Positions 19,340 through 47,655 of a DNA stretch of 64,000 nucleotides are shown here, piece after piece. How positions within the stretch are numbered: position 1 is the stretch's first letter; each line of letters opens with the position of its first letter. The notes beneath the pieces are model-generated. The model searched no databases, had not been told where the DNA came from, and was given only the letters and a program-made list of their open reading frames with translations. This stretch comes from Escherichia phage Ecwhy_1, in the sequence record MH791411.1, one strand, 5' to 3'. The position numbers and the translations under genes were made by a program.

Positions 19340-19810
19340 TTAAAAGTCTTTATTTTTATATAAAATTCGTTGGTTATTTGAACCACGAAATGGTAATGTT
19401 AAATTCTTTTCTTCTGAAACAAATTTACCATCAACTAATACATCTAAGTACTGAAGAATGTCTTTAGCATGATTATTCATAATCTCTTCTAAAGTATATC
19501 CACTCCAGCACCAAATAGTTTTATTGGGATAAGTCTCTTTTACAATCTTACATAGTTCTAAAATTGTTTCTATGTTCTTTTTCATTAGAGGATCTCCACC
19601 AAGGAGGGATAATCCACTAACGTAAGGCTTACTGAGTTCAGCTAAAATTATATCAATTGTATCAGTACTGAACTCTTGTCCACTTCTATAATCCCATGCT
19701 TCTTCATTGAAGCATCCGTCACACCCATGACTGCACCCACTAACAAAAAGGGAGCATCTTACTCCCTCCCCATTAATAAGGTCGTCTTTAATTATCGTCT
19801 GGTAATTCAT
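19340..19810 (-). CDS. nrdG: anaerobic ribonucleotide reductase activating protein (radical SAM)
   Basis: Cys cluster SGCSHGCDGCFNEEAW, 156 aa, immediately downstream of nrdD. Confidence 0.85.
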   Translation of the reverse strand: MNYQTIIKDDLINGEGVRCSLFVSGCSHGCDGCFNEEAWDYRSGQEFSTDTIDIILAELSKPYVSGLSLLGGDPLMKKNIETILELCKIVKETYPNKTIWCWSGYTLEEIMNNHAKDILQYLDVLVDGKFVSEEKNLTLPFRGSNNQRILYKNKDF

Positions 19811-20114
19811 CTAATATTGCACTCACTATCTCAACGAGAACATCACCATGACATGATTTCGGTTTACAGAAACAGCCAAGACGTTTCCCTGCTAACTCAA
19901 GTAAATCATCAATCTGAACTTCACCGTTAGAAATACGCTCAATAATGTATTCTCTGAACTTTTCGATTGATTCTTCCCTTGTAGCAACAATGAACTCGGC
20001 TTTGGTCTGTTTATCACTGATATGGGTAAATGGGTTGCCCCATTTAGACCCACGACCGATATACACATCATACGGTTCTTTATATTTGTTAACCACAATT
20101 GGCTTTAAATCCAT
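19788..20114 (-). CDS. conserved phage protein with GNPF motif (DUF4326-like)
   Basis: YIGRGSKWGNPF plus C-terminal GCFCKPKSCHGDVL cysteine/histidine cluster; family assignment from memory of the motif, unverified. Confidence 0.5.
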   Translation of the reverse strand: MDLKPIVVNKYKEPYDVYIGRGSKWGNPFTHISDKQTKAEFIVATREESIEKFREYIIERISNGEVQIDDLLELAGKRLGCFCKPKSCHGDVLVEIVSAILDELPDDN

Positions 20115-25146: not shown

Positions 25147-25391
25147 TGTGCATCCTTTGGAATAGTGTTAAGGCGTGTACGGTTTACAATCTTCCTGCAC
25201 ATGAGATTAAGATCTTGCCCATGACGCATCTCATGGCAAGCATACAATGTACCATCATAGTTAAGTTTAGTCAAATTCTGGCGAATGAACTCTGCATCAG
25301 CCTCCTGAACTTTAGGTGCACAGCCACAGAGAGTAATGGACACAAATATTGTTAATGTAATGAATATATTTTTCATGATATTTTTTCTCAT
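25143..25391 (-). CDS. putative lipoprotein
   Basis: Signal peptide ending ITLCGC (lipobox-like), 82 aa. Confidence 0.45.
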   Translation of the reverse strand: MRKNIMKNIFITLTIFVSITLCGCAPKVQEADAEFIRQNLTKLNYDGTLYACHEMRHGQDLNLMCRKIVNRTRLNTIPKDAQ

Positions 25392-26359
25392 TTTGGGCTA
25401 TAACCACTTTTAATTTTAGAAATTACTTTCTTCTCGAAGAACTTACGTGCTTCTTCAATAGTTTTGAATTCTTCACCATCTGTAGTACTGGTTTTACCAA
25501 TAGCACCATACTCAATAATTACTTCACACACTGGAGCATTCAATTCAATATTATAGAATTTGTTCGAAGAACCGTGAACATATTCCAAATGTACATTATC
25601 AGGAATGTTCTGCACATAATCATAGTTCTTGAAGATAATATCAATCATATTTTCTTCACCGCGATCAGGAAATAGTTCAGTATTATTCAGTACTAAACGC
25701 TGTGCAGCACGGAACATATCAAAATATTGTTCACCTTTTTTCAGTTCTTTTGTATCAGAACAGAAATGACCATAGTATTCTACATAATCATTCCAAGGAT
25801 AAATTCCTTCATCAGCAGTTTCAAAAGCGTAAGTTTCATCTTGTGGAACTTTAAAACCACGAGTTTTTGGATGAGAAATTAAGCACAGTGAAATATTATG
25901 ACCGATATCTGAATCATCAGTAATACTACCACCAACCATATGAACAACATTTTTAATACGTTCAAAATCTACATCTTCAATTTCATGATACATTAAATGT
26001 TCTTCAATATTACTTACTAGTAATGAATTACCATTTCCTGCATCGAATTCAAAAATGAAAAGTTCTACACAATCTTCTTCTTTCATTTCAATAGTATCAC
26101 TGAGTTTAATATACTCATTTTTTACTTGTTCAATATTTTCATGAGAACCAAAACTATAACGAGAACTGATATAACTACTACCATCCAACCATCCCATATC
26201 CCAAGGTTCTTCTGACATGTATTCGGTGCTATAGAAATCAGTCAAATCATCTCTCTGAGTACAAACCGTAAGAGAACGAACATTATTAAGACCTTGAACT
26301 TCAAGATTCAGTACTGTAGTGTTGCCGATTTTTTGTTCAGAAATAATTTTAGTTTTCAT
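25388..26359 (-). CDS. WGR-domain protein
   Basis: C-terminal ~60 aa KFYNIELNAPVCEVIIEYGAIGKT...KIKSGY fits the WGR fold pattern (W-G-R replaced by Y-G-A); N-terminal 260 aa unassigned. Confidence 0.45.
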   Translation of the reverse strand: MKTKIISEQKIGNTTVLNLEVQGLNNVRSLTVCTQRDDLTDFYSTEYMSEEPWDMGWLDGSSYISSRYSFGSHENIEQVKNEYIKLSDTIEMKEEDCVELFIFEFDAGNGNSLLVSNIEEHLMYHEIEDVDFERIKNVVHMVGGSITDDSDIGHNISLCLISHPKTRGFKVPQDETYAFETADEGIYPWNDYVEYYGHFCSDTKELKKGEQYFDMFRAAQRLVLNNTELFPDRGEENMIDIIFKNYDYVQNIPDNVHLEYVHGSSNKFYNIELNAPVCEVIIEYGAIGKTSTTDGEEFKTIEEARKFFEKKVISKIKSGYSPK

Positions 26360-28146: not shown

Positions 28147-28174
28147 GAAAAAATCCCTGCCAAAAGACAGGGAT
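28147..28174 (-). terminator. putative intrinsic terminator
   Basis: Stem TCCCTG/CAGGGA with 8-nt loop and T6 run on minus strand. Confidence 0.5.
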
Positions 28175-28532: not shown

Positions 28533-29972
28533 TTACATATTTTCTTCAGCAAATTCTGCCAGTGGTGAACGAACGACACCTTCTAGTTCGATTACACGAC
28601 AACCGTCCCAGTTCTTGAACTTCTCGGTAACATAAGTTAGACCGCTGTTAACTGGACTAATGAATTTAGAGTCAATCTGGCTCAAGTTGCCCATAATAAC
28701 CACTTTACAGTTCATTCCTGCACGAGTCAGGATTGTTTTAGCCTGAGCAGGAGTAATGTTCTGGAATTCATCCACTACTAGGATAGTGTTTGTGAAAGAA
28801 CGCCCACGAACGAAGTTTAGTGCTTTGAACTGGATAACATTACGTTTCATGATTTCTTCGATACTGCCTTGTGGGTTAGCATCATCTTTGTGTAGGAATT
28901 CCAACGCATCAATGGCAGCTCCACAGAATGGAATCACCTTCTCTGCCTCAGAACCTGGCAAGAAACCAATGTCTTCGAATTGGGAATCTTGTGTTTTGGA
29001 GAAGATGATACGGTCGTATTTTTTCTTCTCTAGTACTAGCTCCAGTGCAGTAGCAATGGTGATCAATGTTTTACCAGTACCTGCGGAACCCAACAGTACT
29101 GTTAGATGAACATCAGGATCTAGGATACTGTTGATTGCTAGTGCTTGTTGAATATTCTTAGCCTTAATATCCCACACTTTAGCACGTAGAGCAACAGATT
29201 GTCCAATATCTTGGAATACAAGAATATCTTCTGGTGTTAAAGTACCATCATCTTCTTCAATTGCAGATTGGCCTTCGTACACAAATAGAACATCAGCATT
29301 ATCATATAGGTAATCACCGATGCAAATATTTTGTGGCATGATATGTTCAATCAAGCTTTTTGGAATGTAGTGATACAAACGGCGACCAACTTGTTCAGAT
29401 TGGATAGACACATCAGTTAGATTGCTATACACATCCCAAAAATCTAGGTCGAGGTGATGTTGACCAATGTGAATCAAATCACTATCACCAATCACGATAT
29501 CATGACGATAATCTTGAACTTCCACCCCGTAGCTTAGAGCCTTGATACGCATATTGATATCACGGGTAACCAGTACTGAATCAGTTGCTAATGCTACTAA
29601 AATGATTTTATCATCTGGTACTGTGCTTTTTAGAAGAGTTTGAACTTTCTCTTCGTTACCAGAAGTACGAATTAGTGCTTCAGCTTCTTCGCTTGTAATA
29701 ACAAACAATTTGCTTTCAGGACTCATATTAGTATGAACATCAGCAATATTAACACCAGTACTACTAATTTCTTCATGTGATGCATCAGAAAGGATAGCTT
29801 CAATGTTACGGATTGCAACACGAGCATCACGGGAAACATCCACATTACGACTTTTGATTGAATCCAATTCTTCAAGTACTGTGAACGGTAGAATGATAGC
29901 TGCTCCATCAAAAGCAATGGTAGCATTTGGATCAGATAGTAGTACGTTTGTGTCAATTGTATATTTTTTCAT
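28533..29972 (-). CDS. phoH: PhoH-like ATPase with N-terminal PIN domain
   Basis: N-terminal PIN-like MKKYTIDTNVLL...EELD; Walker A LLGSAGTGKTLITIA; 479 aa. Confidence 0.85.
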   Translation of the reverse strand: MKKYTIDTNVLLSDPNATIAFDGAAIILPFTVLEELDSIKSRNVDVSRDARVAIRNIEAILSDASHEEISSTGVNIADVHTNMSPESKLFVITSEEAEALIRTSGNEEKVQTLLKSTVPDDKIILVALATDSVLVTRDINMRIKALSYGVEVQDYRHDIVIGDSDLIHIGQHHLDLDFWDVYSNLTDVSIQSEQVGRRLYHYIPKSLIEHIMPQNICIGDYLYDNADVLFVYEGQSAIEEDDGTLTPEDILVFQDIGQSVALRAKVWDIKAKNIQQALAINSILDPDVHLTVLLGSAGTGKTLITIATALELVLEKKKYDRIIFSKTQDSQFEDIGFLPGSEAEKVIPFCGAAIDALEFLHKDDANPQGSIEEIMKRNVIQFKALNFVRGRSFTNTILVVDEFQNITPAQAKTILTRAGMNCKVVIMGNLSQIDSKFISPVNSGLTYVTEKFKNWDGCRVIELEGVVRSPLAEFAEENM

Positions 29973-30033: not shown

Positions 30034-30336
30034 TTACATGCTCGGTTCGTATTCAACATAACATCTTGAACCACGAGCCTTTTCCTCCCAGCATTCCTGG
30101 TAAACTAGTTGACCAATTGATACTGGATCTCTTGATAACCCATTACGAACTTCACCAGTACTGGTTTTATAAGTAAATGAGCATTTATTTTCATTACATT
30201 GACCTAATCCTGTTACAGTCGCTGTATTGTAATGAATATTATAACGTTTAGTGTTCTCATGATATGAACTGAACCACAGAACACCTATACCTAATAGCGT
30301 TGTGCAAATAAGACTCTTGATATGTGTTGAAATCAT
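30034..30336 (-). CDS. secreted or membrane-anchored small protein
   Basis: N-terminal hydrophobic segment LICTTLLGIGVLWF, four Cys, 100 aa. Confidence 0.45.
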   Translation of the reverse strand: MISTHIKSLICTTLLGIGVLWFSSYHENTKRYNIHYNTATVTGLGQCNENKCSFTYKTSTGEVRNGLSRDPVSIGQLVYQECWEEKARGSRCYVEYEPSM

Positions 30337-30653
30337 AGTGCATTAAATCCATTAGTTAAGTAAGTTTCAATATTAACTTTCCCTACTGGATTACTACTAT
30401 GTACATAGTATTTAAATGGTTCTTTAATATTATGCTCAAACATATAATCAATTAGAAATTTGGCAAAAGTGTATCCAGTTTTCTCATCTGTACTCAAGTC
30501 ACCCAAGTCATGGTCAAATGAGACAAATGCTGGAATTCCATTTTTGATTACGTATTCACATGCACTTTCGTAGTCACGACACAATACCATCTCTTGGTCA
30601 GGATAATATTTTTGATAATCACGAATATCATCCAAGAACATTGAGTACGACAT
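30333..30653 (-). CDS. hypothetical protein
   Basis: Track ORF, 106 aa; 4-nt overlaps on both sides place it in the Sir2-Nudix operon. Confidence 0.5.
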   Translation of the reverse strand: MSYSMFLDDIRDYQKYYPDQEMVLCRDYESACEYVIKNGIPAFVSFDHDLGDLSTDEKTGYTFAKFLIDYMFEHNIKEPFKYYVHSSNPVGKVNIETYLTNGFNAL

Positions 30654-30662
30654 TTTAAACTC

Positions 30663-31214
30663 CTATAGATAGCTGATTAGTAAGTTTTCTTTTTGTACAA
30701 GATACTCTAATTCTTGTTTCGCAGTTCCGATGAAGTTCTGTGTCATAAGATTATTATATCCTGCTTCTCGATTTTGTCCCTTCGAATAACGAGAGATGTG
30801 ACATAAATTTACACCAGCCACCTCTGCACTAGCATGTTTGCCATATGCATAATTATCACGAAGTTTTTTAAGTTCAGCATAAGTCATTTCATAACTATAG
30901 CTATGTGAGTGACCCTCTGGAAACAATTCAAGTGATTTTAATGGAGACAGGCGACTTTTGTCAATGATATAGTTCATTTCTTCTTGTACTTCACGTTGTA
31001 ACGCATCTTCTAATGACTTATCAGTACTTTCAACTGTTCCACCACATGCACCCAACAATCCATCCCAACGCACTTGTAGGAGTACTAAGTTAACCACTGG
31101 AATATCATTTAGTTCATAACCAGAGTATGGGGTACATTCTTTTGCATAAAAGAAACAGAATACAAAATTTGCACGTTTCCCCAGTTGTCCCAGTGGTACT
31201 TCAGCTTTACTCAT
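30663..31214 (-). CDS. Nudix hydrolase
   Basis: GGTVESTDKSLEDALQREVQEEMNYI approximates the Nudix box (MutT GGKIEMGETPEQAVVRELQEEVGI) with one inserted residue. Confidence 0.6.
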   Translation of the reverse strand: MSKAEVPLGQLGKRANFVFCFFYAKECTPYSGYELNDIPVVNLVLLQVRWDGLLGACGGTVESTDKSLEDALQREVQEEMNYIIDKSRLSPLKSLELFPEGHSHSYSYEMTYAELKKLRDNYAYGKHASAEVAGVNLCHISRYSKGQNREAGYNNLMTQNFIGTAKQELEYLVQKENLLISYL

Positions 31215-31963
31215 CGCATTCGTTCCTTAATTATAGTTTCAACCTGTGGAATTGCTTTCGTCGCAGGTTTGATGACCTTCTCATTAAAAAGAAAATCATT
31301 ATCATTTTTTCGGATGTTAACATTTACACTATAGCATGGAAGTGCACCAGCTAGTCTGGACCATACCAGTACTGTATCACTACTTCCAATAACTACAACT
31401 GTATCATTTTCTGTGAGACTTTTCAACACTTCATTTCGTTCTTCATAAATGGGGAGACGTACCCCATCAACGTAGCGATGATACTCACCAATCATCACTA
31501 CATTTGGTTTTGCAAAAACATCAGCTTTAGGGATATATGGTTCATAACCACAATTAATGACATTGTAATCATCAGTATTAATAGAAAAGTTCTCAATTAC
31601 TTCACATAAATTGCCGTGTAGTTTGAGTTCGGTTCCACCAATTCTAGTATATAGATCATCCATATTAGAAGTCATGTGTAAAAAACAATCACCATACAAA
31701 TCTTCTAATGATTTAATAAAGTAATGCATTTCATTAGGATGACATTCACCTAATTTTACACGCAATGTATTATAAAATGAATGAACTATATGATACTTAG
31801 AACTAAGTCGTGCAATGTTACAAACATCATTAATTTTGAAATTGTCCCACAACCCATCATCAAAGCGGAATGGTTCCATCCCGCTCTCAACTGAAAGACC
31901 TGCCCCTGAAATTATAAGTAATCTTTTGTTCCCAGCATTTTGTATAAATTTATCTGATATCAC
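31211..31963 (-). CDS. Sir2-family NAD-dependent deacylase / ADP-ribosyltransferase-like protein
   Basis: ISGAGLSVESGMEPFR (GAGIS.ESGIP.FR motif), TSNMDDL, LHGNL catalytic-His motif, PNVVMIGE, VVVIGSSDTV; Zn-binding Cys tetrad degenerate (two Cys only). Confidence 0.65.
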   Translation of the reverse strand: MISDKFIQNAGNKRLLIISGAGLSVESGMEPFRFDDGLWDNFKINDVCNIARLSSKYHIVHSFYNTLRVKLGECHPNEMHYFIKSLEDLYGDCFLHMTSNMDDLYTRIGGTELKLHGNLCEVIENFSINTDDYNVINCGYEPYIPKADVFAKPNVVMIGEYHRYVDGVRLPIYEERNEVLKSLTENDTVVVIGSSDTVLVWSRLAGALPCYSVNVNIRKNDNDFLFNEKVIKPATKAIPQVETIIKERMR

Positions 31964-32195: not shown

Positions 32196-32789
32196 TCAGT
32201 ATTTCAAAATATCAAACTCTGGACTAACACTTGTTACATTATCACTGACAATTTTGAAAATAGACTCAACACGTTCATGTAACTGAACATTGGTTTCTTC
32301 TTGAACTTCAATATACGCTGACATGGATGCAATTGCATGATAAGTCCCACTTCCGACAGCAGTAATTTGTGTTTTAGGTTGCAGTACTGAAAAGTCTTCT
32401 TGAACTTCATAAATCGTATGATTATGAAGAATAATGAACTGACCACCACCAACGTCTTGTGATGCATCACGAGCACCCCATTCATCTTTAAACATTTGAC
32501 GAATGATAGGAATAACTTTCAGTACTAGATACTGTGAAAAGGTTTCCCCTGCAACTTGTTCTGGTAGAGTTAGGTTGTAATTCAACAACTGTCCCATGCG
32601 GAACGAGGTAGTATACCCCAACGCCATTACTTCTTTAGTGCGAGAAAGACCATCCTCATTGAGTTTAATGAACTCTTTCTCAAATACTTTAGGCTCAGTT
32701 TGAACTGCTTTAGTGAAACCATTGCTTCCTAATTTATCACCAGCGATGAAGGAAGATGTGCCATTTGTGTGAGCGATAATACAAGTCAT
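32196..32789 (-). CDS. HslV / proteasome beta-subunit-like Ntn hydrolase
   Basis: Start set to ATG at 32789 preceded by AAGGAG RBS with 7-nt spacer; product begins MTCIIAHTNGTSSFIAGDKLGSNG (HslV [25 protein letters not shown]) and has ITAVGSGTYHAIASMSAY (HslV IAIGSGGPYAQAAARAL). Confidence 0.55.
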   Translation of the reverse strand: MTCIIAHTNGTSSFIAGDKLGSNGFTKAVQTEPKVFEKEFIKLNEDGLSRTKEVMALGYTTSFRMGQLLNYNLTLPEQVAGETFSQYLVLKVIPIIRQMFKDEWGARDASQDVGGGQFIILHNHTIYEVQEDFSVLQPKTQITAVGSGTYHAIASMSAYIEVQEETNVQLHERVESIFKIVSDNVTSVSPEFDILKY

Positions 32790-33046
32790 GAAATAACTCC
32801 TTGTGCAAAAAGGGCCGTATACAACCAGTATATCAACAACCCTAGTGTAAGTAAACATGCTCCATAAGAAATTGATAGAACATAGTAAATTCCTGCTTCT
32901 AACTTGGATGAAAATTTGTGTGTACTGGAATCCATAAAACCACGTTTGTAGTCTTTATAGATGAAACATGTTAAAACTAATGTAATGCAATATACAATAG
33001 TTGTTGCATAAAAAACAAGAGATGTTAAGTTTTGTAAATTTGTCAT
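32786..33046 (-). CDS. small membrane protein
   Basis: 86 aa, two hydrophobic helices. Confidence 0.45.
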   Translation of the reverse strand: MTNLQNLTSLVFYATTIVYCITLVLTCFIYKDYKRGFMDSSTHKFSSKLEAGIYYVLSISYGACLLTLGLLIYWLYTALFAQGVIS

Positions 33047-33138
33047 AGTTTATACACTCCTAGTGTATGTGAACTTATAACAAAGGATGTACCACTTTAT
33101 CATCCTCTTATTATAATATTATTATTTTGTATCTAATA

Positions 33139-33747
33139 CTAATGAATGATACTACCTAATTCGAGCAACTGATCTGGTGTAAGTCTTACAACTTCATTAC
33201 CACGAACCTTACTAACCTCCACTAACAATTCTGGAGGAATACCATTCGCTGCATATAACGCAAATAGAACACCAACCTTAGTTGATAGCTGTTCAGCAAA
33301 AATAGTCATTTGGCGAACTGATATGTATGTGTCATCACTATTTCGTGCTTTACTTTCGATTGACACATTATGTAGACCTAGAATTGAGTCCTTCATCATG
33401 TATCTGTTTTCTATATTAGCACTAAAGAATGCGATAGTGCAAGAAGAATTACAATATCTTTCAACAATAATTGTTAAATTGTTATCATTGACAAAATTTC
33501 CTAGTGCCACTCCCGCATCAAAATCACCACCTGGTGACGTAATGATGATCGTGTCAAATGGGTGTGTTTCTCTAAAAACCATCAAACGGTTTACAGTATT
33601 TTCAGTTAAAGTTGAAATGAACTGAACTGTCTGTTTAGATTCATCATATCTAATGATACTTTTTCTTTCAACACCTGCACTTGCAGGAAAGTTAATTAAG
33701 AAAATAATAATAATAGATTGGATGATTTCTTTACATAATCGTACCAC
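33139..33747 (-). CDS. secreted ClpP/S49-family serine peptidase-like protein
   Basis: GTG start with AAGAGGG RBS; N-terminal signal-like segment; TSPGGDFDAGVALGNFV resembles the ClpP/SppA xSPGG motif. Confidence 0.5.
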   Translation of the reverse strand: MVRLCKEIIQSIIIIFLINFPASAGVERKSIIRYDESKQTVQFISTLTENTVNRLMVFRETHPFDTIIITSPGGDFDAGVALGNFVNDNNLTIIVERYCNSSCTIAFFSANIENRYMMKDSILGLHNVSIESKARNSDDTYISVRQMTIFAEQLSTKVGVLFALYAANGIPPELLVEVSKVRGNEVVRLTPDQLLELGSIIH

Positions 33748-33787
33748 TGGTTAACCCTCTTAGTTGATTGTTGATTACATAAATAAT

Positions 33788-33814
33788 ATTATAGGAAGAT
33801 TTAACTTAAGTCAA
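33788..33814 (-). promoter_or_regulatory. possible sigma70-type promoter
   Basis: On minus strand TTGACT, 15-nt spacer, TATAAT, about 40 nt upstream of the GTG start at 33747; spacer is short. Confidence 0.25.
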
Positions 33815-34000
33815 ATTGTTTTTTATATCACTTCACAAATTCCCTCGCAGAATCACCCCGCCTTTTTACCTTCTTTGGAATGATTATATCACACTAATGT
33901 ATAATGTCTATGCTTTTGTCAACAAATAACGTGGTAGTACTGAACTCGTTGTTGGTTCTAAGAGTTTTCCTGAAATTCAAACAAGTTGTGTACTAACAAA

Positions 34001-34030
34001 AGAAAAAGGAGCCTTATGGCTCCTTTTTTT
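34001..34030. terminator. putative bidirectional intrinsic terminator
   Basis: Stem GGAGCC/GGCTCC with TTAT loop flanked by an A-run on one side and T7 on the other. Confidence 0.5.
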
Positions 34031-34295
34031 ATTCTACCGTATTAAGTTTCTGACAAATCATGTCAGCTTCAACACGGTCTTTATAATAAATGGTAAAACC
34101 AAATTTACCAGTTACTTTATACTCTTTACAAGTTAAACAATTTACAATGTAGTACTTGTTGTTTTGTGCTGAAAATCGTACTTCATGATTACGCATCACT
34201 GGTGGAGTAGTATTATCATTTAATACCATCATCACTAAAAGTACAAGAATCACAACTGCAAATGGAATACCTAAAATCAAGAAAGTCAAAGTCAC
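34029..34295 (-). CDS. small membrane protein
   Basis: 88 aa; N-terminal TM helix LILGIPFAVVILVLLVMMVL. Confidence 0.45.
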   Translation of the reverse strand: MTLTFLILGIPFAVVILVLLVMMVLNDNTTPPVMRNHEVRFSAQNNKYYIVNCLTCKEYKVTGKFGFTIYYKDRVEADMICQKLNTVE

Positions 34296-34768
34296 AACCC
34301 CTTATCATAAATGCAATTTACAATAATCCCAGCATCTTCCAGTACTTTAATAGCTTCTGGTGGAGTGCGAGGATAACTTTTGTGATAAATCACACGAGCA
34401 ATACCACTTCCCGCGATCAACTTAGAACAAGTATAGCATGGTTGTAGCGTTGTGTAAAGTGTTGCTCCCTGACGTTCAGTAGGTGAACTGTATAACAATG
34501 CATTCATTTCAGCATGGATTTCATGGATATTACTCCATTCATGGTGTTCATGCTTTGCGTCATCGCTAACCCAGTCTTGGAAACGTCCACCATTAACTAA
34601 GTGCTCATTAGCGTCACAGCAGTTAGGTTGTTTAGATGGAGTGCCATTATAACCAGTACTCAATACTCGGTTATTTTTAACAATAACACAACCAACTTTC
34701 TGTGAAATGCATTTACTCTCTTCAGCCACGACTTCGGCTATCTTCAACCACGTCAAGTGTTTCATCAT
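34292..34768 (-). CDS. cd: dCMP deaminase
   Basis: HAEMNALLYS and TLQPCYTCSKLIAGSGI zinc-binding motifs; 158 aa. Confidence 0.8.
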   Translation of the reverse strand: MMKHLTWLKIAEVVAEESKCISQKVGCVIVKNNRVLSTGYNGTPSKQPNCCDANEHLVNGGRFQDWVSDDAKHEHHEWSNIHEIHAEMNALLYSSPTERQGATLYTTLQPCYTCSKLIAGSGIARVIYHKSYPRTPPEAIKVLEDAGIIVNCIYDKGL

Positions 34769-35249
34769 ATACTCCTAGGGATTGTAATTTGGCTTTACAG
34801 TTCGAATGTATTTTAAGAATACGAAGGTAGTTTAGCACATCTGATTCTTCAATGTCAAATGGTTTCGCTGCATAAACGTCCCATGCTCCCATTAATTCTG
34901 TACAGAACTTGATATCACCCGAACCCAGCAACTTGTCACGGAATTGTTTAAACTCGATTTCTTCATCGGATAATGAAAAACCCAAATCCATAAAGCACAT
35001 ACCACCAGCACTGAAGCATGACCCAGATGATGTACCAATTAAAATATCATCCATCCCATATAAGCCGTAAAAAATATTGGAGTACCAAGTACTAAGTTTA
35101 CTTCGGTGATGATATTTAAGAACATTCTTCTTGATATTTACATCTAATGAATTAGCTGTTGATATCACTTTTTTGGTTAAAATAATAGTTTTGTTCAAAT
35201 TACTCAACCATACTTTAGTATCAGTTGGGCTAAGAGCAGTGTATTTCAT
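34722..35249 (-). CDS. hypothetical protein
   Basis: Track ORF, 175 aa. Confidence 0.5.
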   Translation of the reverse strand: MKYTALSPTDTKVWLSNLNKTIILTKKVISTANSLDVNIKKNVLKYHHRSKLSTWYSNIFYGLYGMDDILIGTSSGSCFSAGGMCFMDLGFSLSDEEIEFKQFRDKLLGSGDIKFCTELMGAWDVYAAKPFDIEESDVLNYLRILKIHSNCKAKLQSLGVYDETLDVVEDSRSRG

Positions 35250-35250
35250 G

Positions 35251-35775
35251 TTAATCCTCTAAATTCCATTCATCAACCATAGTTGAGCATAATTCCATGT
35301 GTCGGAAATATTTCTCATTAAGTGAATATGGACTCTTATAAAATTGTCGTACATCAGTGAATATATCATAGTTTCTATATATAAATGACATATTTTTATT
35401 CATGAATTCTATAATCTTCCATAACTTTTCTGTATCGTTTTGTATAGTTTCTGCACTCAATCCCGTCAATTTCATTAGACGCTTGATTTTGAAGCCTGAC
35501 TCTATTGACGTATTATTATGCTTAGTTAAGTAACTATAGCCGATAGAACTCTGTATTAGTTCGATACTATCAGTACTAGTTATTGTTCCTAGAAATGATT
35601 TTAAATTTCTATTCAACCAATACCATTTTTTGTTCTTGTTATAGCAAGAATACCACTTTTTAACTATAGCTATTGCCTCTGAATTTAAACTTTCGGCAAA
35701 TTCATCAATTAAAAACATGTGATTGAAAAATAAATCACTTTGATCTTCAGATAATTTATATTGCTGCATATCCAC
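35251..35775 (-). CDS. hypothetical protein
   Basis: Track ORF, 174 aa. Confidence 0.5.
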   Translation of the reverse strand: MDMQQYKLSEDQSDLFFNHMFLIDEFAESLNSEAIAIVKKWYSCYNKNKKWYWLNRNLKSFLGTITSTDSIELIQSSIGYSYLTKHNNTSIESGFKIKRLMKLTGLSAETIQNDTEKLWKIIEFMNKNMSFIYRNYDIFTDVRQFYKSPYSLNEKYFRHMELCSTMVDEWNLED

Positions 35776-35888
35776 CTACCCTATTAACAATTACACCTTG
35801 GGTATTTACCTCGTATGGATCAATTTTTGATCAATAATTTTTGATATGCAGCAAATAAAATGGGAATCATGAAAGATTCCCTAAGTAA

Positions 35889-36389
35889 TTATTTCTGGAA
35901 TGGAGTGTACTGGTACTGCTCACAATCAGATACAGTTAGTACACCTTCATCATAACCGTACTGGAGAATAAGATCAAATGCTTTATCAACCATAGCTACA
36001 ACGTCTTTGTAACGAACGATGGTATGTGCCTGTTTCTCAACTGCTTTCATAATACCCATCAACATCCAGCGACCTTCATCAGTGTGAAGTTTAGCAAAAC
36101 GAGGACGTTTAGTTGCTGCCATAATGTCAGTCCATTCTGCTTTAAACACTGATGGACGTTTAGGAATATCATACAGAGTTGTTGGGAATGTTACGTTGTT
36201 TTTCTTCATAGCTTCAGCTTGTGCAGCACGATAACCTTGACGGAATAGTGGGTGCTGTGATTTTAGCTGTTCATTGTTAAAAACTACTTTGTTTTTAAAC
36301 GCGGCAGAACCTTCTTTGTATTGTGCATTAGACATATTATTCTTTCCCCTCGTCAGTACTGATGAATTTTTTATCTGAGAATGTGCCAT
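35889..36389 (-). CDS. hypothetical protein
   Basis: Track ORF, 166 aa; start may be internal ATG (MSNAQYKEG) near 36335. Confidence 0.5.
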   Translation of the reverse strand: MAHSQIKNSSVLTRGKNNMSNAQYKEGSAAFKNKVVFNNEQLKSQHPLFRQGYRAAQAEAMKKNNVTFPTTLYDIPKRPSVFKAEWTDIMAATKRPRFAKLHTDEGRWMLMGIMKAVEKQAHTIVRYKDVVAMVDKAFDLILQYGYDEGVLTVSDCEQYQYTPFQK

Positions 36390-36666
36390 GTTCTTGACGC
36401 ATAGCTTCTGCGTGTTGAACTGCGTTAATTGGATTAATGTTCTTTTTAATAAGAACTTCTTGCATTAGTTCGAGAACAATAGAAAAACCATTGAGTACTC
36501 GTTCTGCCTCGTCAACACCTTTCAATTCAATAGCCACTGCACTAATCTGATCTAATGCGGTATTAATAAACTCTGAATCATCTAACACATCATTGACTTC
36601 AGTATTATTACGTACAAGAACTTTCATATAATCTCCAGAAATAAGATGCCCCAAATGAGGCATCAA
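36337..36666 (-). CDS. hypothetical protein
   Basis: Track ORF, 109 aa. Confidence 0.45.
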   Translation of the reverse strand: MMPHLGHLISGDYMKVLVRNNTEVNDVLDDSEFINTALDQISAVAIELKGVDEAERVLNGFSIVLELMQEVLIKKNINPINAVQHAEAMRQEHGTFSDKKFISTDEGKE

Positions 36667-36678
36667 ATGAAATTCAAA

Positions 36679-37374
36679 TTAGACCCACTCTTCCACGCCA
36701 CCGCGACGTTTGACGAGATACTTACCTTCTTCGTTGCGTGGACCAAGGATGATACCATCAATGAAACCATGTTCACCGTATTCGAGTGCTTCTTCAGCGT
36801 TCAACCACAGGTCACGATCCGCATCTTTCAGTAGTTGTTCGTGTGATACACCAACTGCTTCAGCAATTTCTTTAGTCAGTAGTGTGTTCAATGCATCAGA
36901 GTGTTTCAAGGAAATCTTCTGATCAGTAATCAGACCCTGAGTACCGGAACTTACTTGGTGACACATGAAGTAAGAACGCTTCCCGCCTAGACGGAAACCT
37001 TTAGTACCAACTACTGATTGTGTATAGCAACCCATTGATGCTGCATAACCCATTACTACTGTACGGATAGGAGATACACAAGACTTAGCAATGTCAGCGA
37101 TACCTAAACCTGCGTGTACTGAACCACCAGGAGAACTAATGTAGAAGGTAATTGGTTCAGAACCCTGAGAATCCAACCACACCAATTGTTGCTTGATGAT
37201 ATGTGCCATTTGGTCATTGAAGTCAGTATCAAGGAAAATGATACGGTCTTGCATCATACGAGATGCTAGATCATAAGTACGTTCTGCACCATTAACTTTT
37301 TCAACTACATAAGGAATAGAAATGTCGCGAACTTCACCACCAGCATAACCACCAAAATTGAATTGTTCAACCAT
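36679..37374 (-). CDS. clpP: ATP-dependent Clp protease proteolytic subunit
   Basis: YISSPGGSVHAGLGI, catalytic-Ser context GYAASMG, His in MCHQVS, Asp in DADRDLWLNAEEALEYG; 231 aa. Confidence 0.85.
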   Translation of the reverse strand: MVEQFNFGGYAGGEVRDISIPYVVEKVNGAERTYDLASRMMQDRIIFLDTDFNDQMAHIIKQQLVWLDSQGSEPITFYISSPGGSVHAGLGIADIAKSCVSPIRTVVMGYAASMGCYTQSVVGTKGFRLGGKRSYFMCHQVSSGTQGLITDQKISLKHSDALNTLLTKEIAEAVGVSHEQLLKDADRDLWLNAEEALEYGEHGFIDGIILGPRNEEGKYLVKRRGGVEEWV

Positions 37375-46497: not shown

Positions 46498-46742
46498 TAC
46501 AATAATCCTCTCACATAAAACATTGATGAAAATAGATAATCTTCAGTACTAGAATTTAGTAGTTTATCAAAACTATATTTTTTATGCTTATTTTTATACA
46601 AAGACATTCTATAGAATCTTTCTATATTTTCTAAGTATTCATTTCGTAATAACATCTGTGTTGTTACATTCACTATAATGTACCTTAAAAGAAAAAGGGA
46701 CCAATATATGATCCCTTTTGTATTAGAAATTACCTTCAGCAA
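46497..46742 (-). CDS. hypothetical protein
   Basis: Track ORF, 81 aa. Confidence 0.4.
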   Translation of the reverse strand: MLKVISNTKGIIYWSLFLLRYIIVNVTTQMLLRNEYLENIERFYRMSLYKNKHKKYSFDKLLNSSTEDYLFSSMFYVRGLL

Positions 46743-47655
46743 CTTGCATTACTTTCAACCCAAGTAGCTTACGCCACATGAATACAACTTGTGATCTATC
46801 ATCATAAACCTTTTTAACATCGTAATGATCAACCACATTTTTCATGTACAGGTCGAATTTTACAACATCATCAGGACGTTTGTCATCGATGCCTCGCATA
46901 AACAACGCATCATAAGGAACACCCCAATTCTTAAGCCACTGTTCGGTATCAGCACGACACCCTTCAGTACGCCCACTCATGACGATAATCTTGCGTTTAT
47001 GAAAAACTGCTTCAGCGATAACAGATAAAATAACTTCTTCGTCTGGTGTATCCTGGAGTACAGTACTTTCATCGAACGGGTTACGTCCCCATTTATGAGC
47101 AAGAGTACCGTCGATATCAACGATAATAGCAGCTTCTCGTGAATTACCATAGTAACCAATGTGTAATGCCTTACTATAATAGTACGTATCTGCCATAGTG
47201 TCAATGATATTATCTTGTACTGAACGCTCACGCTGGAGGTTATATTTCTTACAAAGTTTTACGAACTCTTTAATCTTAAAGAATTCATGAACATCTGCAC
47301 CACGGTCTTCATTAGGTACAAAATCATCATAGAAGTTCTTTTCTTTGTAATCATAACCATTATCTATAGCCCATACTTTCCATAGATTACGGAAATGTTG
47401 TTTAAGGTTCGTATCGGATATGATGATGTTCCAACCATTCTCTGCTGCTGAATTTGCTGCACTGAACTGTAAATTAGTTACGTACTGCTCATTAGCATCG
47501 TTGAATTTGTAAGCATCATGTGACCCAGCCATAGATTCACGAATATCATCACGGTTGATGTTGATAGTCTTGGATTTGGCTTTTTTAATCTCTTGCACTG
47601 CCCATGTAGTTTTACCACACCCAGGCAATCCAACTGTTAGTGTGATAGTTGGCAT
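46723..47655 (-). CDS. pnk: polynucleotide 5'-kinase / 3'-phosphatase (T4 PseT-like)
   Basis: N-terminal P-loop TVGLPGCGKTTWA; HAD-type phosphatase motif AAIIVDIDGTLAH in C-terminal half; 310 aa. Confidence 0.85.
   Translation of the reverse strand: MPTITLTVGLPGCGKTTWAVQEIKKAKSKTININRDDIRESMAGSHDAYKFNDANEQYVTNLQFSAANSAAENGWNIIISDTNLKQHFRNLWKVWAIDNGYDYKEKNFYDDFVPNEDRGADVHEFFKIKEFVKLCKKYNLQRERSVQDNIIDTMADTYYYSKALHIGYYGNSREAAIIVDIDGTLAHKWGRNPFDESTVLQDTPDEEVILSVIAEAVFHKRKIIVMSGRTEGCRADTEQWLKNWGVPYDALFMRGIDDKRPDDVVKFDLYMKNVVDHYDVKKVYDDRSQVVFMWRKLLGLKVMQVAEGNF

What the first reader, a model, noticed from the sequence alone, without database searches (positions are those of the whole stretch)
30663..31963. 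Phage-encoded Sir2-like protein translationally coupled to a Nudix hydrolase, with an NMN-adenylyltransferase-like gene elsewhere
31211..31963 carries the sirtuin hallmark motifs but lacks the usual four-Cys zinc module, and its stop overlaps the start of a Nudix hydrolase (30663..31214) as ATGA. Sirtuins consume NAD+ and release ADP-ribose or O-acyl-ADP-ribose, which Nudix enzymes hydrolyse, so the pairing is functionally coherent. A cytidylyltransferase-fold protein with an HxGH motif (55799..56332) could regenerate NAD+ from NMN. In bacteria Sir2 domains are frequent NAD+-depleting defence effectors and some phages carry NAD+ salvage enzymes as counter-defence; a phage with its own Sir2-Nudix pair could be modifying host proteins or buffering NAD+/ADP-ribose. 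No Nampt-like gene was recognised here.
Basis: partly seen in the sequence, partly recalled or inferred. Interest (0 to 1): 0.6.

Follow-up and report, generated by a model that had tools for sequence, protein, structure and literature searches.

The report
Jumbo-phage sirtuin–Nudix–cREC gene block
The Sir2 and Nudix genes are real and are the first two genes of a conserved five-gene block in RaK2/PBECO4-like jumbo phages that was already described and predicted (never tested) to do NAD+-dependent RNA-end repair; the proposed NAD+-regenerating partner gene is not supported.

Summary
A 250-aa Sir2 (31211..31963, minus strand) overlaps a 183-aa Nudix (30663..31214) as ATGA. The window is 99.98% identical to Escherichia jumbo phage fEgEco12, where both genes are already annotated.

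Sir2 has an intact catalytic core, lacks the Cys4 zinc module, and most resembles CobB/SIRT5 deacylases. It is neither a CobB equivalog nor a defence-type Sir2. The Nudix belongs to the NUDT16/X29 subfamily.

The pair is part of a longer block: Sir2 > Nudix > cREC > 100-aa membrane protein > PIN-PhoH. This order is kept in every RaK2-like jumbo-phage locus examined, and Nudix and cREC are fused in 9 of 15. Iyer et al. 2022 described this neighbourhood and predicted Tpt1-like RNA repair.

My checks support an RNA context. Elsewhere cREC sits with Rnl1, PNKP and Macro genes, and Sir2 sits with RNA-end enzymes in T5-like and V5-like phages. This phage has PNKP and an unannotated Rnl1.

Evidence against: all three proteins are acidic, and one lineage keeps Nudix-cREC-PIN-PhoH without an adjacent Sir2.

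The 177-aa "NMNAT-like" gene is a HIGH-fold transferase of unknown substrate. Nampt is absent genome-wide; sister phages carry Nampt, NMNAT-Nudix and Acb1 just upstream. Function remains untested.

The parts
31211..31963 (-). Sir2-like sirtuin, 250 aa, GTG start; catalytic core intact, zinc-less
   Evidence: Pfam SIR2 1.4e-19. PDB best hit E. coli CobB, 1.6e-21. AF2 pLDDT 88.6; Foldseek top hits CobB, Sir2Af and SIRT5, TM 0.76. Invariant G20 G22 S27 G28 N100 D102 H116 G117 G159 E160. Below NCBIfam CobB cut-offs. No PADLOC hit.
30663..31214 (-). NUDT16/X29-subfamily Nudix hydrolase, 183 aa; start overlaps the Sir2 stop (ATGA)
   Evidence: Pfam Nudt16-like 1.4e-18 and NUDIX 2.4e-7. PDB human NUDT16 9e-12 and Xenopus X29 1.4e-10. 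The R74-E75-x-x-E78-E79 Nudix box is invariant.
30333..30653 (-). cREC (cyclic-phosphate-processing receiver-like) protein, 106 aa; in frame with the Nudix ORF, separated by TAG plus two codons, with its own GGAG ribosome-binding site
   Evidence: Pfam cREC_REC 1.9e-23. Invariant D8 D9 D47 H48 D49. Fused to the Nudix in phage BF gp113, in 9 of 15 jumbo loci and in 20 of 55 homologue clusters. Junction sequence.
30034..30336 (-). Conserved 100-aa protein with an N-terminal hydrophobic helix and a Cys-containing tail; ATGA overlap with cREC
   Evidence: PHROG 14661 'membrane protein' 1.2e-38. Present between cREC and PIN-PhoH in all RaK2-like loci. Hydrophobic window at residues 6-24. Junction sequence.
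28533..29972 (-). PIN + PhoH (PhoH2-like RNA helicase/nuclease homologue), 479 aa
   Evidence: Pfam PIN_4 4.3e-20 and PhoH 8.5e-45. NCBIfam 'RNA 5'-3' helicase PhoH2' 1.7e-45, below its cut-off. Always the last gene of the block.
33883..33910 (-). Best sigma-70-like promoter match upstream of the block (TAGACA-16-TATAAT, TG extension); consensus match only
   Evidence: it lies just downstream of a strong terminator-like hairpin at 34003..34028.
28153..28174 (-). Terminator-like hairpin (9-bp stem plus T-run) after the gene that follows PIN-PhoH; probable end of the transcription unit (consensus match only)
46723..47655 (-). Polynucleotide kinase-phosphatase (T4 Pnk-like); RNA end-healing enzyme encoded about 15 kb upstream of the block
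   Evidence: Pfam HAD_PNKP 5.8e-43 plus P-loop kinase AAA_33 1.1e-12.
48478..49620 (-). T4 RnlA (Rnl1) family RNA ligase, annotated only as 'hypothetical protein' (g182) in fEgEco12
   Evidence: NCBIfam TIGR02308, 291 bits, above the 242 cut-off. PHROG 562, 7.7e-108. Local Rnl1-like HMM 5.3e-30.
55799..56332 (-). HIGH-superfamily nucleotidyltransferase of the cyanophage 'cytitidyltransferase' family, 177 aa; substrate unknown; not shown to belong to the Sir2 block
   Evidence: Pfam CTP_transf_like only 0.012. PHROG 3041, 8.7e-54. Invariant HxGH and SSTxxR. AF2 pLDDT 87. Foldseek PPAT, FADS and NaMNAT all at TM about 0.5. 565 phage records, mostly cyanophages. Mislabelled 'ribonucleotide reductase A' in fEgEco12.

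Best explanation
The Sir2-Nudix pair is the front of a conserved co-directional block (Sir2, NUDT16-like Nudix, cREC, small membrane protein, PIN-PhoH2) of RaK2/PBECO4-like jumbo phages.

Shown here:
- Sir2 is a zinc-less, CobB-derived sirtuin with every NAD+-binding and catalytic residue intact.
- The Nudix has an intact catalytic box and belongs to the NUDT16 subfamily.
- cREC keeps its acidic active-site residues and is fused to the Nudix in many relatives.
- The gene order is conserved down to about 40% protein identity.

Inferred:
- Sir2 spends NAD+ to join ADP-ribose to an oxygen nucleophile and releases nicotinamide.
- The Nudix-cREC pair then dismantles the ADP-ribose-containing product. 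cREC would open or remove a (cyclic) phosphate. The Nudix would cut the pyrophosphate to give AMP plus a ribose phosphate.
- The most likely acceptor is a phosphate on a broken RNA end. [quoted passage not shown] The block would then be an NAD+-dependent RNA end-healing module working beside the phage's own PNKP and Rnl1 ligase, as Iyer et al. 2022 predicted.

The general layer (an NAD+-consuming Sir2 whose ADPr product is disposed of by Nudix-cREC) I put at about 0.65. The specific RNA-end layer is the confidence given below.
For: Gene order Sir2 > Nudt16-like > cREC > membrane protein > PIN-PhoH holds in 9 of 9 jumbo loci found via Sir2 and 15 of 15 found via cREC. Two more divergent lineages found via the Nudix keep the order without the membrane protein.

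Nudix-cREC fusions occur in 9 of 15 loci and 20 of 55 protein clusters, which implies a shared substrate.

Outside the jumbo clade (65 loci, 33 groups), cREC's commonest neighbours are T4 Rnl1-type RNA ligase, PF09414 RNA ligase, a P-loop kinase, HAD_PNKP, Macro and a metallophosphoesterase-like protein (sequence motifs only; no Pfam hit).

Sir2 neighbours RNA-end enzymes in two other lineages: HAD_SAK_2 about 1 kb downstream in about 25 T5-like loci, and an Rnl1-type ligase plus metallophosphoesterase in V5-like loci.

The phage encodes PNKP and a bona fide RnlA ligase.

PIN-PhoH is related to the RNA helicase PhoH2.

Tpt1 chemistry parallels sirtuin chemistry: an oxygen nucleophile attacks NAD+ C1'', then O2'' attacks the adduct (PMC6097658, PMC6333775; the parallel is my inference). 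Its product is exactly what a cyclic phosphodiesterase plus a pyrophosphatase would clear.

Human NUDT16 removes ADP-ribose placed on phosphorylated RNA ends by TRPT1 and PARP10 (PMC6582358) and cleaves NAD/FAD/CoA RNA caps (PMC7337524).

An independent published prediction covers the same neighbourhood (PMC9503650, section 3.7.3).
Against: No biochemical data exist for any phage sirtuin or any cREC.

Sir2, Nudix and cREC are all acidic: pI 4.6-5.6 here, median 5.4 for 64 phage Sir2 proteins, maximum 7.0. That is unlike what I recall for RNA-binding Tpt1 enzymes.

The closest sequence and fold relatives are protein lysine deacylases, and the GE of the substrate-stapling FGE loop is invariant.

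A T4-type PNKP + Rnl1 pathway does not create 2'-phosphate junctions (established knowledge).

This phage lacks the 2H enzyme that the published model uses to make 2'-phosphates. In relatives that 2H protein falls in the anti-CBASS Acb1 family.

PIN nucleases leave 3'-OH and 5'-P ends, not cyclic phosphates (established knowledge).

One divergent lineage keeps Nudix-cREC-PIN-PhoH with no Sir2 within 6 kb.
Confidence: 0.4

Rival explanations
1. Protein deacylase with by-product disposal. Sir2 is a CobB-like NAD+-dependent lysine deacylase acting on host or phage proteins. The Nudix, perhaps with cREC, hydrolyses the O-acyl-ADP-ribose or ADP-ribose it releases.
For: Best sequence hits are E. coli CobB, Sir2Af and SIRT5, and the best fold hits are the same. 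All catalytic residues and the GE of the FGE loop are invariant. Y64 and R68 are invariant near the position of the class III YxxR acidic-acyl signature, and the three most distant homologues lacking the jumbo-clade insert (P0027, P0028, P0030) keep YxxR exactly. Acidic proteins fit protein or small-molecule substrates. GenBank records annotate it this way.
Against: It scores 84-90 bits against CobB equivalog models whose cut-offs are 243-320. The zinc module that shapes the peptide cleft is lost, and the canonical Q of TQNxD is replaced. This reading does not explain the strict linkage to cREC and PIN-PhoH2, nor the RNA ligase, HAD_SAK_2 and phosphoesterase neighbours in other lineages. OAADPr disposal is classically done by Macro domains, and none is in the block.
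Confidence: 0.25
2. RNA 5'-end decapping and decay module. The functional core is the NUDT16-like Nudix plus cREC plus the PIN-PhoH2 5'-3' helicase/nuclease. The Nudix strips 5' caps (NAD, ADPr or triphosphate) so that RNA can be unwound and cleaved, for host shut-off or RNA turnover. Sir2 is an accessory that acts on NAD-derived caps, or is only loosely linked.
For: Nudix-cREC-PIN-PhoH is the tightest unit and persists without an adjacent Sir2 in one lineage. Characterised NUDT16/X29 enzymes are RNA decapping enzymes, including for NAD, FAD and CoA caps (PMC7337524). PIN-PhoH matches the RNA 5'-3' helicase PhoH2 model.
Against: Sir2 is present beside the trio in every other lineage with enough flank. 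No role for cREC follows from this model. The Nudix is acidic and has no evident RNA-binding extension.
Confidence: 0.15
3. Anti-defence NAD+/ADP-ribose metabolite hub. The block processes small NAD+-derived molecules, either degrading immune signals such as cyclic ADPR isomers or toxic ADPr phosphates, or buffering NAD+/ADPR. It would work alongside NAD+ reconstitution and anti-CBASS genes.
For: In sister phages the block is directly preceded by an Acb1-family 2H phosphodiesterase and by Nampt plus an NMNAT-Nudix fusion, the two NARP2 enzymes (bioRxiv 10.1101/2024.02.11.579819). Nampt lies within 8 kb of Sir2 in four other lineages. The acidic proteins suit small-molecule substrates. PMC7824862 proposes cREC and Nudix as degraders of cADPr-type signals.
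Against: This phage has lost or never had Acb1, Nampt and NMNAT-Nudix yet keeps the block intact, so the block works without them. An NAD+-consuming Sir2 is counter-productive for NAD+ buffering. No hit to defence or anti-defence models. cREC's wider context is RNA repair, not Thoeris or CBASS countermeasures.
Confidence: 0.15
4. No functional link: Sir2 and Nudix are merely neighbours in a region of miscellaneous auxiliary genes.
For: The ATGA overlap is not conserved, and small ORFs intervene in some relatives. Most non-jumbo Sir2 lineages lack Nudix and cREC.
Against: Order and orientation are conserved across all RaK2-like loci down to about 40% Nudix identity, while the flanking genes vary.
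Confidence: 0.05

Closest known systems
Jumbo-phage sirtuin neighbourhood type 1 of Iyer, Burroughs, Anantharaman and Aravind 2022 (Viruses 14:1977, PMC9503650, section 3.7.3; prototype Serratia phage BF)
   Same: [quoted passage not shown] The Sir2 is 44% identical to BF gp112, the Nudix+cREC 50% and PIN-PhoH 69%.
   Different: No 2H phosphoesterase anywhere in the genome. Nudix and cREC are separate ORFs, not fused. No flanking Nampt or NMNAT-Nudix. The published function is a prediction only.
E. coli CobB / human SIRT5 (class III sirtuin lysine deacylases)
   Same: Same fold (TM 0.76), about 27% identity, same NAD+-binding and catalytic residues (GAGxS, N, D, H-G, GE).
   Different: No Cys4 zinc site. 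Q of TQNxD replaced by S. The YxxR arginine is displaced by one residue. An extra insert follows the GE motif. Far below the equivalog cut-offs. Embedded in an RNA-end-enzyme context.
Tpt1/KptA NAD+-dependent RNA 2'-phosphotransferase with Appr>p disposal (yeast Tpt1, Cpd1 and Poa1)
   Same: Proposed working analogy: an NAD+-consuming transferase followed by a cyclic phosphodiesterase and further ADPr-phosphate breakdown. Reaction logic from PMC6097658 and PMC6333775.
   Different: No homology: Tpt1 has an ART-type fold, whereas this is a Rossmann-fold sirtuin. Disposal would use cREC and Nudix in place of 2H and Macro. Activity is untested.
Human NUDT16 / Xenopus X29
   Same: Same Nudix subfamily (Pfam PF22327; PDB E 9e-12), with a closely similar Nudix box, GGxVxxxDxSLEDxLxRExxEE. 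NUDT16 cleaves ADPr on proteins and on RNA ends, and cleaves NAD/FAD/CoA caps (PMC6582358, PMC7337524).
   Different: Phage protein, acidic, fused or adjacent to cREC; the last Nudix-box glycine is replaced (EEMNY versus EELGE); substrates unknown.
NARP2 (KVP40 Nampt + Nmnat) phage NAD+ reconstitution pathway
   Same: Sister jumbo phages carry Nampt plus an NMNAT-Nudix fusion 2-7 kb upstream of the Sir2 gene.
   Different: Both genes are absent from this phage. The 177-aa HIGH transferase in the window is a different family, sharing only the HxGH region with BF gp106.

Membership tests
Sirtuin (Sir2) superfamily, Pfam PF02146 | Profile match above the curated threshold over the whole domain | tested here: met
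   71.1 bits against a cut-off of 24, residues 20-198 matching profile positions 1-178 of 180.
Sirtuin (Sir2) superfamily, Pfam PF02146 | NAD+-binding GAGxS loop, N and D of TQNxD, and the catalytic His of the HG motif | tested here: met
   G20, G22, S27, G28, N100, D102, H116 and G117 are invariant in 21 homologues. The Q of TQNxD is S, A or T in the phage clade.
Sirtuin (Sir2) superfamily, Pfam PF02146 | Cys4 zinc-binding module in the small domain | tested here: not met
   Only two Cys in the region. A conserved Cys-poor GY..P hairpin replaces it, whereas the distant homologue P0029 keeps CxxC...CxxC.
Sirtuin (Sir2) superfamily, Pfam PF02146 | Sirtuin fold | tested here: met
   AF2 pLDDT 88.6 and pTM 0.88; Foldseek hits to CobB, Sir2Af and SIRT5 at E 6e-15 and TM 0.76.
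CobB-type NAD-dependent protein deacylase (NCBIfam equivalogs NF040867, NF001755 and others) | Score above the curated equivalog cut-off | tested here: not met
   84-90 bits against cut-offs of 243-320.
CobB-type NAD-dependent protein deacylase (NCBIfam equivalogs NF040867, NF001755 and others) | Class III YxxR acidic-acyl recognition motif | tested here: inconclusive
   Y64 is invariant, but the aligned Arg position is Leu67 and the invariant Arg is R68, giving YxxxR; the distant homologues P0027, P0028 and P0030 keep YxxR. CobB residue numbering is from memory.
CobB-type NAD-dependent protein deacylase (NCBIfam equivalogs NF040867, NF001755 and others) | Lysine deacylase activity | not testable with these tools
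   Needs an enzyme assay.
Defence-associated Sir2 NADases (ThsA, DSR1/2, SIR2-HerA, SPARSA) | Similarity to defence Sir2 models, or fusion or pairing with a sensor domain | tested here: not met
   No PADLOC hit at E<=0.01. No defence Sir2 among the top 50 fold hits. It is a single-domain 250-aa protein.
NUDT16/X29 Nudix subfamily (Pfam PF22327) | Profile match above threshold, and sequence homology to solved NUDT16/X29 structures | tested here: met
   67.8 bits against a cut-off of 27; PDB 5wji 9.1e-12 and 1u20 1.4e-10.
NUDT16/X29 Nudix subfamily (Pfam PF22327) | Nudix box catalytic residues REx2EE | tested here: met
   R74, E75, E78 and E79 are invariant in 7 homologues; see also the alignment.
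cREC (Pfam PF20274) | Profile match, and conserved receiver-like acidic residues | tested here: met
   83.4 bits against a cut-off of 27; D8, D9, D47, H48 and D49 invariant. Catalytic activity of the family has never been shown (PMC9503650).
Iyer et al. 2022 type-1 jumbo-phage sirtuin RNA-repair neighbourhood | [quoted passage not shown] | tested here: met
   same order as phage BF.
Iyer et al. 2022 type-1 jumbo-phage sirtuin RNA-repair neighbourhood | Linked 2H phosphoesterase | tested here: not met
   No homologue of the BF or EJP2 2H/Acb1-like protein anywhere in fEgEco12, by tblastn and by HMM.
NMN/NaMN adenylyltransferase (NadD, NadM, NadR, NatV), for the 177-aa protein | HIGH-superfamily motifs HxGH and SxxxxR | tested here: met
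   H16, G18, H19, S136, S137 and R141 are invariant. This is a superfamily-level feature only.
NMN/NaMN adenylyltransferase (NadD, NadM, NadR, NatV), for the 177-aa protein | Match to curated NMNAT models | tested here: not met
   TIGR00482 scores 18 bits against a cut-off of 112 and covers only residues 8-28. By contrast BF gp106 scores 294 bits on the NMNAT/Nudix model.
NMN/NaMN adenylyltransferase (NadD, NadM, NadR, NatV), for the 177-aa protein | Fold closer to NMNAT than to other HIGH transferases | tested here: inconclusive
   PPAT/CoaD ranks first, with FAD synthetase and NaMNAT mixed in, all at TM about 0.5.
NARP2 NAD+ reconstitution pathway | Nampt together with Nmnat in the same genome | tested here: not met
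   No Nampt and no NatV-like protein in the window or the whole fEgEco12 genome.
Tpt1/KptA RNA 2'-phosphotransferase | Homology to the Tpt1 fold | tested here: not met
   Sir2 is a Rossmann-fold sirtuin. The resemblance is a proposed functional analogy only.
Tpt1/KptA RNA 2'-phosphotransferase | [quoted passage not shown] | not testable with these tools
   Needs an enzyme assay.

The most novel reading that the evidence does not exclude
The phage sirtuin would be the first sirtuin shown to act on nucleic acid. It would be a Tpt1/KptA analogue that uses NAD+ to remove or ADP-ribosylate phosphates on broken RNA ends. The NUDT16-like Nudix and the never-characterised cREC enzyme would clear the ADP-ribose (cyclic) phosphate product or erase the ADPr cap. 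Together with PIN-PhoH2, PNKP and Rnl1 this would form a phage RNA damage-response pathway against host RNA-cutting defences.
Probability: 0.3. Interest if true: 0.75.

Novelty: new member of a known kind. Interest (0 to 1): 0.35.

Why it matters
Sirtuin genes are common in large virulent phages: 973 phage records match this one, including T5-like, V5-like, KVP40-like and RaK2-like jumbo phages. No phage sirtuin and no cREC protein has been characterised biochemically in the literature I could search. If the RNA-end reading is right, it would extend sirtuin chemistry from acyl-lysine to nucleic-acid phosphates and define a new arm of phage RNA repair against anticodon nucleases and other RNA-cutting defences. 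If the deacylase or metabolite readings are right, the block is a phage tool for rewiring host acylation or NAD+/ADPr pools. The block is a compact, conserved set of small soluble enzymes that is easy to express and test. As a genome-scan finding it is not new: the genes are annotated in GenBank and the neighbourhood is already published as a prediction.

Tried and rejected
1. Defence-type Sir2 (NADase effector or superinfection exclusion): rejected. No PADLOC hit and no defence Sir2 among the fold neighbours.

2. The 177-aa protein as NMNAT: not supported.

3. Nampt, NatV-like or Acb1/2H hidden elsewhere in the genome: searched all of fEgEco12 by tblastn and HMM; nothing found.

4. Programmed read-through making a Nudix-cREC fusion. 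The ORFs are in frame, separated by TAG plus two codons. However, cREC has its own GGAG ribosome-binding site, the in-frame arrangement is limited to the PBECO4 subgroup (offsets), and no tRNA gene lies in the window. I treat it as coincidence or a recent split.

5. A cryptic Sir2 in the Sir2-less lineage (L169, 248-aa upstream gene): rejected. hhalign probability 0.2% and no Pfam hit.

6. The 102-aa protein downstream of Sir2 in V5-like phages as a divergent cREC: not detectable. I could not reproduce the cREC part of the published V5-type neighbourhood with my jumbo-derived HMM.

7. g202 (399 aa, next to the DNA ligase) as an RNA ligase: no Pfam hit. The real Rnl1 is g182.

8. The WGR-domain protein (25388..26359) as a PARP-like ADP-ribosyltransferase: only the C-terminal WGR domain is recognisable.

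9. NARP3 (PnuC + NadR): unrelated to this locus.

10. ValKK3-type (KVP40-like) Sir2 neighbourhood: nothing informative.


Full report
**What is there**

- The Sir2 ORF (31211..31963, 250 aa) starts at GTG, 5 nt after an AAGGAG ribosome-binding site.
- Its TGA stop overlaps the ATG of the Nudix ORF (30663..31214, 183 aa) as ATGA.
- Profile searches support both folds. Pfam gives SIR2 1.4e-19 and Nudt16-like 1.4e-18 plus NUDIX 2.4e-7. PHROGs gives 1e-73 and 6.6e-79.

The window is 99.98% identical to Escherichia phage fEgEco12 (PP777464.1), a 375-kb jumbo phage of the PBECO4/121Q group. There the genes are already annotated 'Sir2-like protein' (g218) and 'NUDIX hydrolase' (g219).

**The Sir2 protein**

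Its nearest solved relatives by sequence are E. coli CobB (1.6e-21), archaeal Sir2Af1/Af2 and SIRT5. A confident AlphaFold model (pLDDT 88.6) finds the same proteins by fold at TM 0.76, with no defence-type Sir2 in the top 50.

In an alignment of 21 homologues at 33-90% identity:
- The GAG loop, S27/G28, N100, D102, the catalytic H116-G117 and G159-E160 are invariant.
- The Q of the canonical TQNxD motif is replaced by S, A or T.
- The Cys4 zinc module is absent. A distant member (P0029) still has CxxC...CxxC. The jumbo clade and the three other distant homologues (P0027, P0028, P0030) have a Cys-poor hairpin with a conserved GY..P motif instead.

The protein scores 84-90 bits on CobB-type NCBIfam models whose cut-offs are 243-320. 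It matches no PADLOC defence model. It is therefore a divergent, probably active, CobB-derived sirtuin. It is neither a CobB equivalog nor a defence NADase.

**The Nudix protein**

It belongs specifically to the NUDT16/X29 subfamily: human NUDT16 9e-12 and Xenopus X29 1.4e-10. Its REx2EE catalytic box is intact and invariant.

Characterised NUDT16 enzymes cleave the diphosphate in NAD, FAD and CoA RNA caps (PMC7337524). They also cleave ADP-ribose attached to proteins and to phosphorylated RNA ends, including ends modified by the Tpt1-family enzyme TRPT1 (PMC6582358).

The phage family is compact: 55 clusters at 38-98% identity.

**The pair is part of a larger block**

- Immediately downstream is a cREC_REC protein (30333..30653; Pfam 1.9e-23).
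- Next comes a conserved 100-aa protein with an N-terminal hydrophobic helix (30034..30336), joined to cREC by another ATGA overlap.
- Last is a PIN+PhoH protein (28533..29972) related to the RNA helicase PhoH2.
- Consensus scans suggest a single transcription unit running from a promoter-like site at about 33.9 kb to a terminator-like hairpin at 28.15 kb. These are pattern matches only.

**Conservation of the block**

I collected loci three ways from viral contigs: via Sir2 (59 loci), via cREC (80 loci) and via the Nudix (14 loci). I annotated them with locally built HMMs seeded from Pfam-verified proteins.
- Every RaK2-like jumbo-phage locus has Sir2 > Nudt16-like > cREC > membrane protein > PIN-PhoH on one strand: 9 of 9 and 15 of 15.
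- Nudix and cREC are fused into one protein of about 300 aa in 9 of those 15 loci and in 20 of 55 protein clusters.
- Two more divergent lineages, with 40-47% Nudix identity, keep the same order without the membrane protein.
- The most divergent lineage (38%) has Nudix-cREC-PIN-PhoH but no Sir2 within 6 kb. The 248-aa gene in the Sir2 position is unrelated to Sir2.
- The tightest unit is therefore Nudix-cREC-PIN-PhoH. Sir2 is a near-universal partner, not an obligate one.
- The ATGA coupling seen here is not conserved.

**This was already described**

[quoted passage not shown] They propose that this distinct sirtuin clade acts like KptA/Tpt1, removing RNA 2'-phosphates with NAD+, while the linked enzymes process cyclic phosphates or the ADPr>P by-product. 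Their 2021 jumbo-phage paper defined cREC (PMC7824862). Both papers are computational. I found no experimental work on any phage sirtuin or on cREC.

**Independent tests of the RNA context**

- *cREC outside the jumbo clade.* I examined 65 loci in 33 dereplicated groups. None has Sir2 nearby. The commonest neighbours are a T4 Rnl1-type RNA ligase directly upstream, a metallophosphoesterase-like protein (assigned from sequence motifs; no Pfam hit), a P-loop kinase, a PF09414 RNA ligase with an OB domain, a Macro domain and the HAD_PNKP phosphatase.
- *Sir2 in other lineages.* In about 25 T5-like loci it is followed within about 1 kb by a HAD_SAK_2 'Swiss-army-knife' phosphatase. In V5-like lineages it has an Rnl1-type RNA ligase and a metallophosphoesterase just upstream.
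- *This phage.* It encodes a T4-type PNKP (46723..47655). About 0.8 kb away is a true RnlA-family RNA ligase (48478..49620; 291 bits against a 242 cut-off) that GenBank lists only as hypothetical.

Together these results make an RNA-end function the best-supported reading. The chemistry is also plausible. In Tpt1 a phosphate oxygen attacks NAD+ C1'' and then the ADP-ribose O2'' attacks the adduct (PMC6097658, PMC6333775). This parallels the sirtuin mechanism, in which an acyl oxygen attacks first and then the His-activated 2'-OH. That parallel is my inference.

**Evidence that cuts the other way**

- Sir2, Nudix and cREC are all acidic: pI 4.6-5.6 here, a median of 5.4 over 64 phage Sir2 proteins, and none above 7.0. 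That fits small-molecule or protein substrates better than RNA.
- The closest relatives of the Sir2 are lysine deacylases, and the GE of the peptide-stapling loop is invariant.
- A T4-type PNKP/Rnl1 pathway does not generate 2'-phosphates.
- This phage has no 2H enzyme at all.
- In the relatives that do have one, the '2H' protein next to Sir2 matches the Pfam Acb1 family of anti-CBASS cyclic-nucleotide phosphodiesterases (3.6e-15 and 1.8e-17). That points towards counter-defence rather than RNA repair for that particular gene.

**NAD+ salvage**

- In BF, EJP2, RaK2, CBB, GAP32 and related contigs, Nampt lies 2-6 kb upstream of the Sir2 gene. An NMNAT-Nudix fusion lies further upstream, within about 7 kb, wherever the fetched flank reaches that far. 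The fusion scores 294 bits on the bifunctional NMNAT/Nudix model.
- Those two enzymes make up NARP2, which is experimentally shown to defeat NAD+-depleting defences (bioRxiv 10.1101/2024.02.11.579819).
- Nampt also lies within 8 kb of Sir2 in four unrelated lineages.
- The PBECO4/fEgEco12 subgroup has neither gene anywhere in its genome.

The 177-aa protein at 55799..56332 does have the HIGH fold and motifs. Several results argue against calling it NMNAT:
- It matches NMNAT models only over about 20 residues at E about 1e-3.
- It shares only the HxGH region with BF gp106.
- Its fold is equally and weakly similar to PPAT, FMNAT and NaMNAT.
- It belongs to the cyanophage 'cytitidyltransferase' family (565 phage records) and also occurs in a RaK2-like genome that carries Nampt.
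- It is 24 kb from the Sir2 block and overlaps a Dam-like methyltransferase gene.

Its substrate is unknown, and nothing ties it to the block.

**Verdict**

Best explanation: an NAD+-consuming sirtuin whose ADP-ribose-containing product is dismantled by the Nudix-cREC pair (about 0.65). The acceptor is most likely a phosphate on a damaged RNA end, as already predicted in the literature (about 0.4).

Rivals:

| Rival | Confidence |
|---|---|
| CobB-like protein deacylase with by-product disposal | 0.25 |
| RNA 5'-decapping and decay module centred on Nudix-cREC-PIN-PhoH2 | 0.15 |
| Anti-defence NAD+/ADPr metabolite hub | 0.15 |
| Mere adjacency | 0.05 |

These readings overlap and were not normalised to sum to 1.

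The locus is a new member of a published but experimentally untested kind. It is a reduced version of that kind, lacking the 2H/Acb1 and NARP2 genes that flank it in sister phages.

What this analysis adds to the published description:
- the Acb1-family identity of the neighbouring 2H protein;
- the systematic adjacency of the NARP2 genes;
- the Sir2-less lineage;
- the uniformly acidic character of the three enzymes;
- the unannotated Rnl1 ligase.

Noticed in passing
window 48478..49620 (-): A bona fide T4 RnlA (Rnl1) family RNA ligase (TIGR02308, 291 bits against a 242 cut-off; PHROG 562) is annotated only as 'hypothetical protein' g182 in fEgEco12. It lies 0.8 kb from the PNKP gene (46723..47655), forming a T4-style RNA repair pair.
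   Followed up: yes
window 55799..56332 (-): In fEgEco12 this HIGH-fold nucleotidyltransferase (g163) is labelled 'ribonucleotide reductase A', which looks like a misannotation. Its start overlaps the stop of a Dam-like N6-adenine methyltransferase gene (56329..56853) by 4 nt.
   Followed up: partly
L014 4228..4674 (Serratia phage BF gp110); L002 4059..4490 (EJP2_129): The small '2H / RNA ligase' protein directly upstream of Sir2 in sister jumbo phages matches Pfam Acb1 (anti-CBASS phosphodiesterase) at 3.6e-15 and 1.8e-17, much better than the generic 2'-5' RNA ligase family. In those phages NARP2, Acb1 and the Sir2 block form one contiguous stretch that looks like an anti-defence/NAD island.
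   Followed up: partly
window 30654..30662, between the Nudix and cREC ORFs: The Nudix and cREC ORFs are in the same reading frame, separated only by TAG plus two codons (…CTA TAG GAG TTT AAA ATG…). Relatives have a true fusion. This is probably a split or fusion event rather than read-through, because cREC has its own GGAG ribosome-binding site.
   Followed up: partly
L169/L170 4800..8309 (Logan metagenome contigs): A divergent lineage carries Nudt16-like, cREC and PIN-PhoH with no Sir2 nearby. Two genes of unknown function (248 aa and 155 aa, no Pfam hit) occupy the upstream positions and might be a non-homologous replacement for Sir2.
   Followed up: partly
window 25388..26359 (-): A 323-aa protein has a C-terminal WGR domain (Pfam 1.3e-10; weak PDB similarity to the PARP3 WGR domain) and an unrecognisable 255-aa N-terminal region. 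It lies 2 kb downstream of the block, which is suggestive in an NAD+/ADPr context but remains unexplained.
   Followed up: partly
window 19788..20114 (-): A DUF4326 protein (g240) lies beside the anaerobic ribonucleotide reductase genes. The Aravind group predicted this domain to link NAD+-utilising systems with DNA modification (PMC7824862).
   Followed up: no
fEgEco12 record 121624..125273 (outside the window): A second RNA/tRNA-related cluster contains a tRNA nucleotidyltransferase (g284), another Nudix (g285), a Macro-domain protein annotated 'phosphatase' (g289; local Macro HMM 2.5e-29) and a peptidyl-tRNA hydrolase (g291).
   Followed up: partly
window 32196..37374 (-): Several protease-like genes are clustered just upstream of the Sir2 block: an HslV-like gene (32196..32858), a weak ClpP-like gene (33139..33747) and a strong ClpP-like gene (36679..37374). 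Interspersed are two dCMP-deaminase-like genes (34292..34768, and g233 near 23.6 kb).
   Followed up: no
L046, L052, L054, L055 (viral contigs): Nampt, with an NMNAT-Nudix gene in L054 and L055, lies within 8 kb of Sir2 in four phage lineages unrelated to the jumbo clade. This suggests a recurrent genomic association between phage sirtuins and NAD+ salvage genes.
   Followed up: partly
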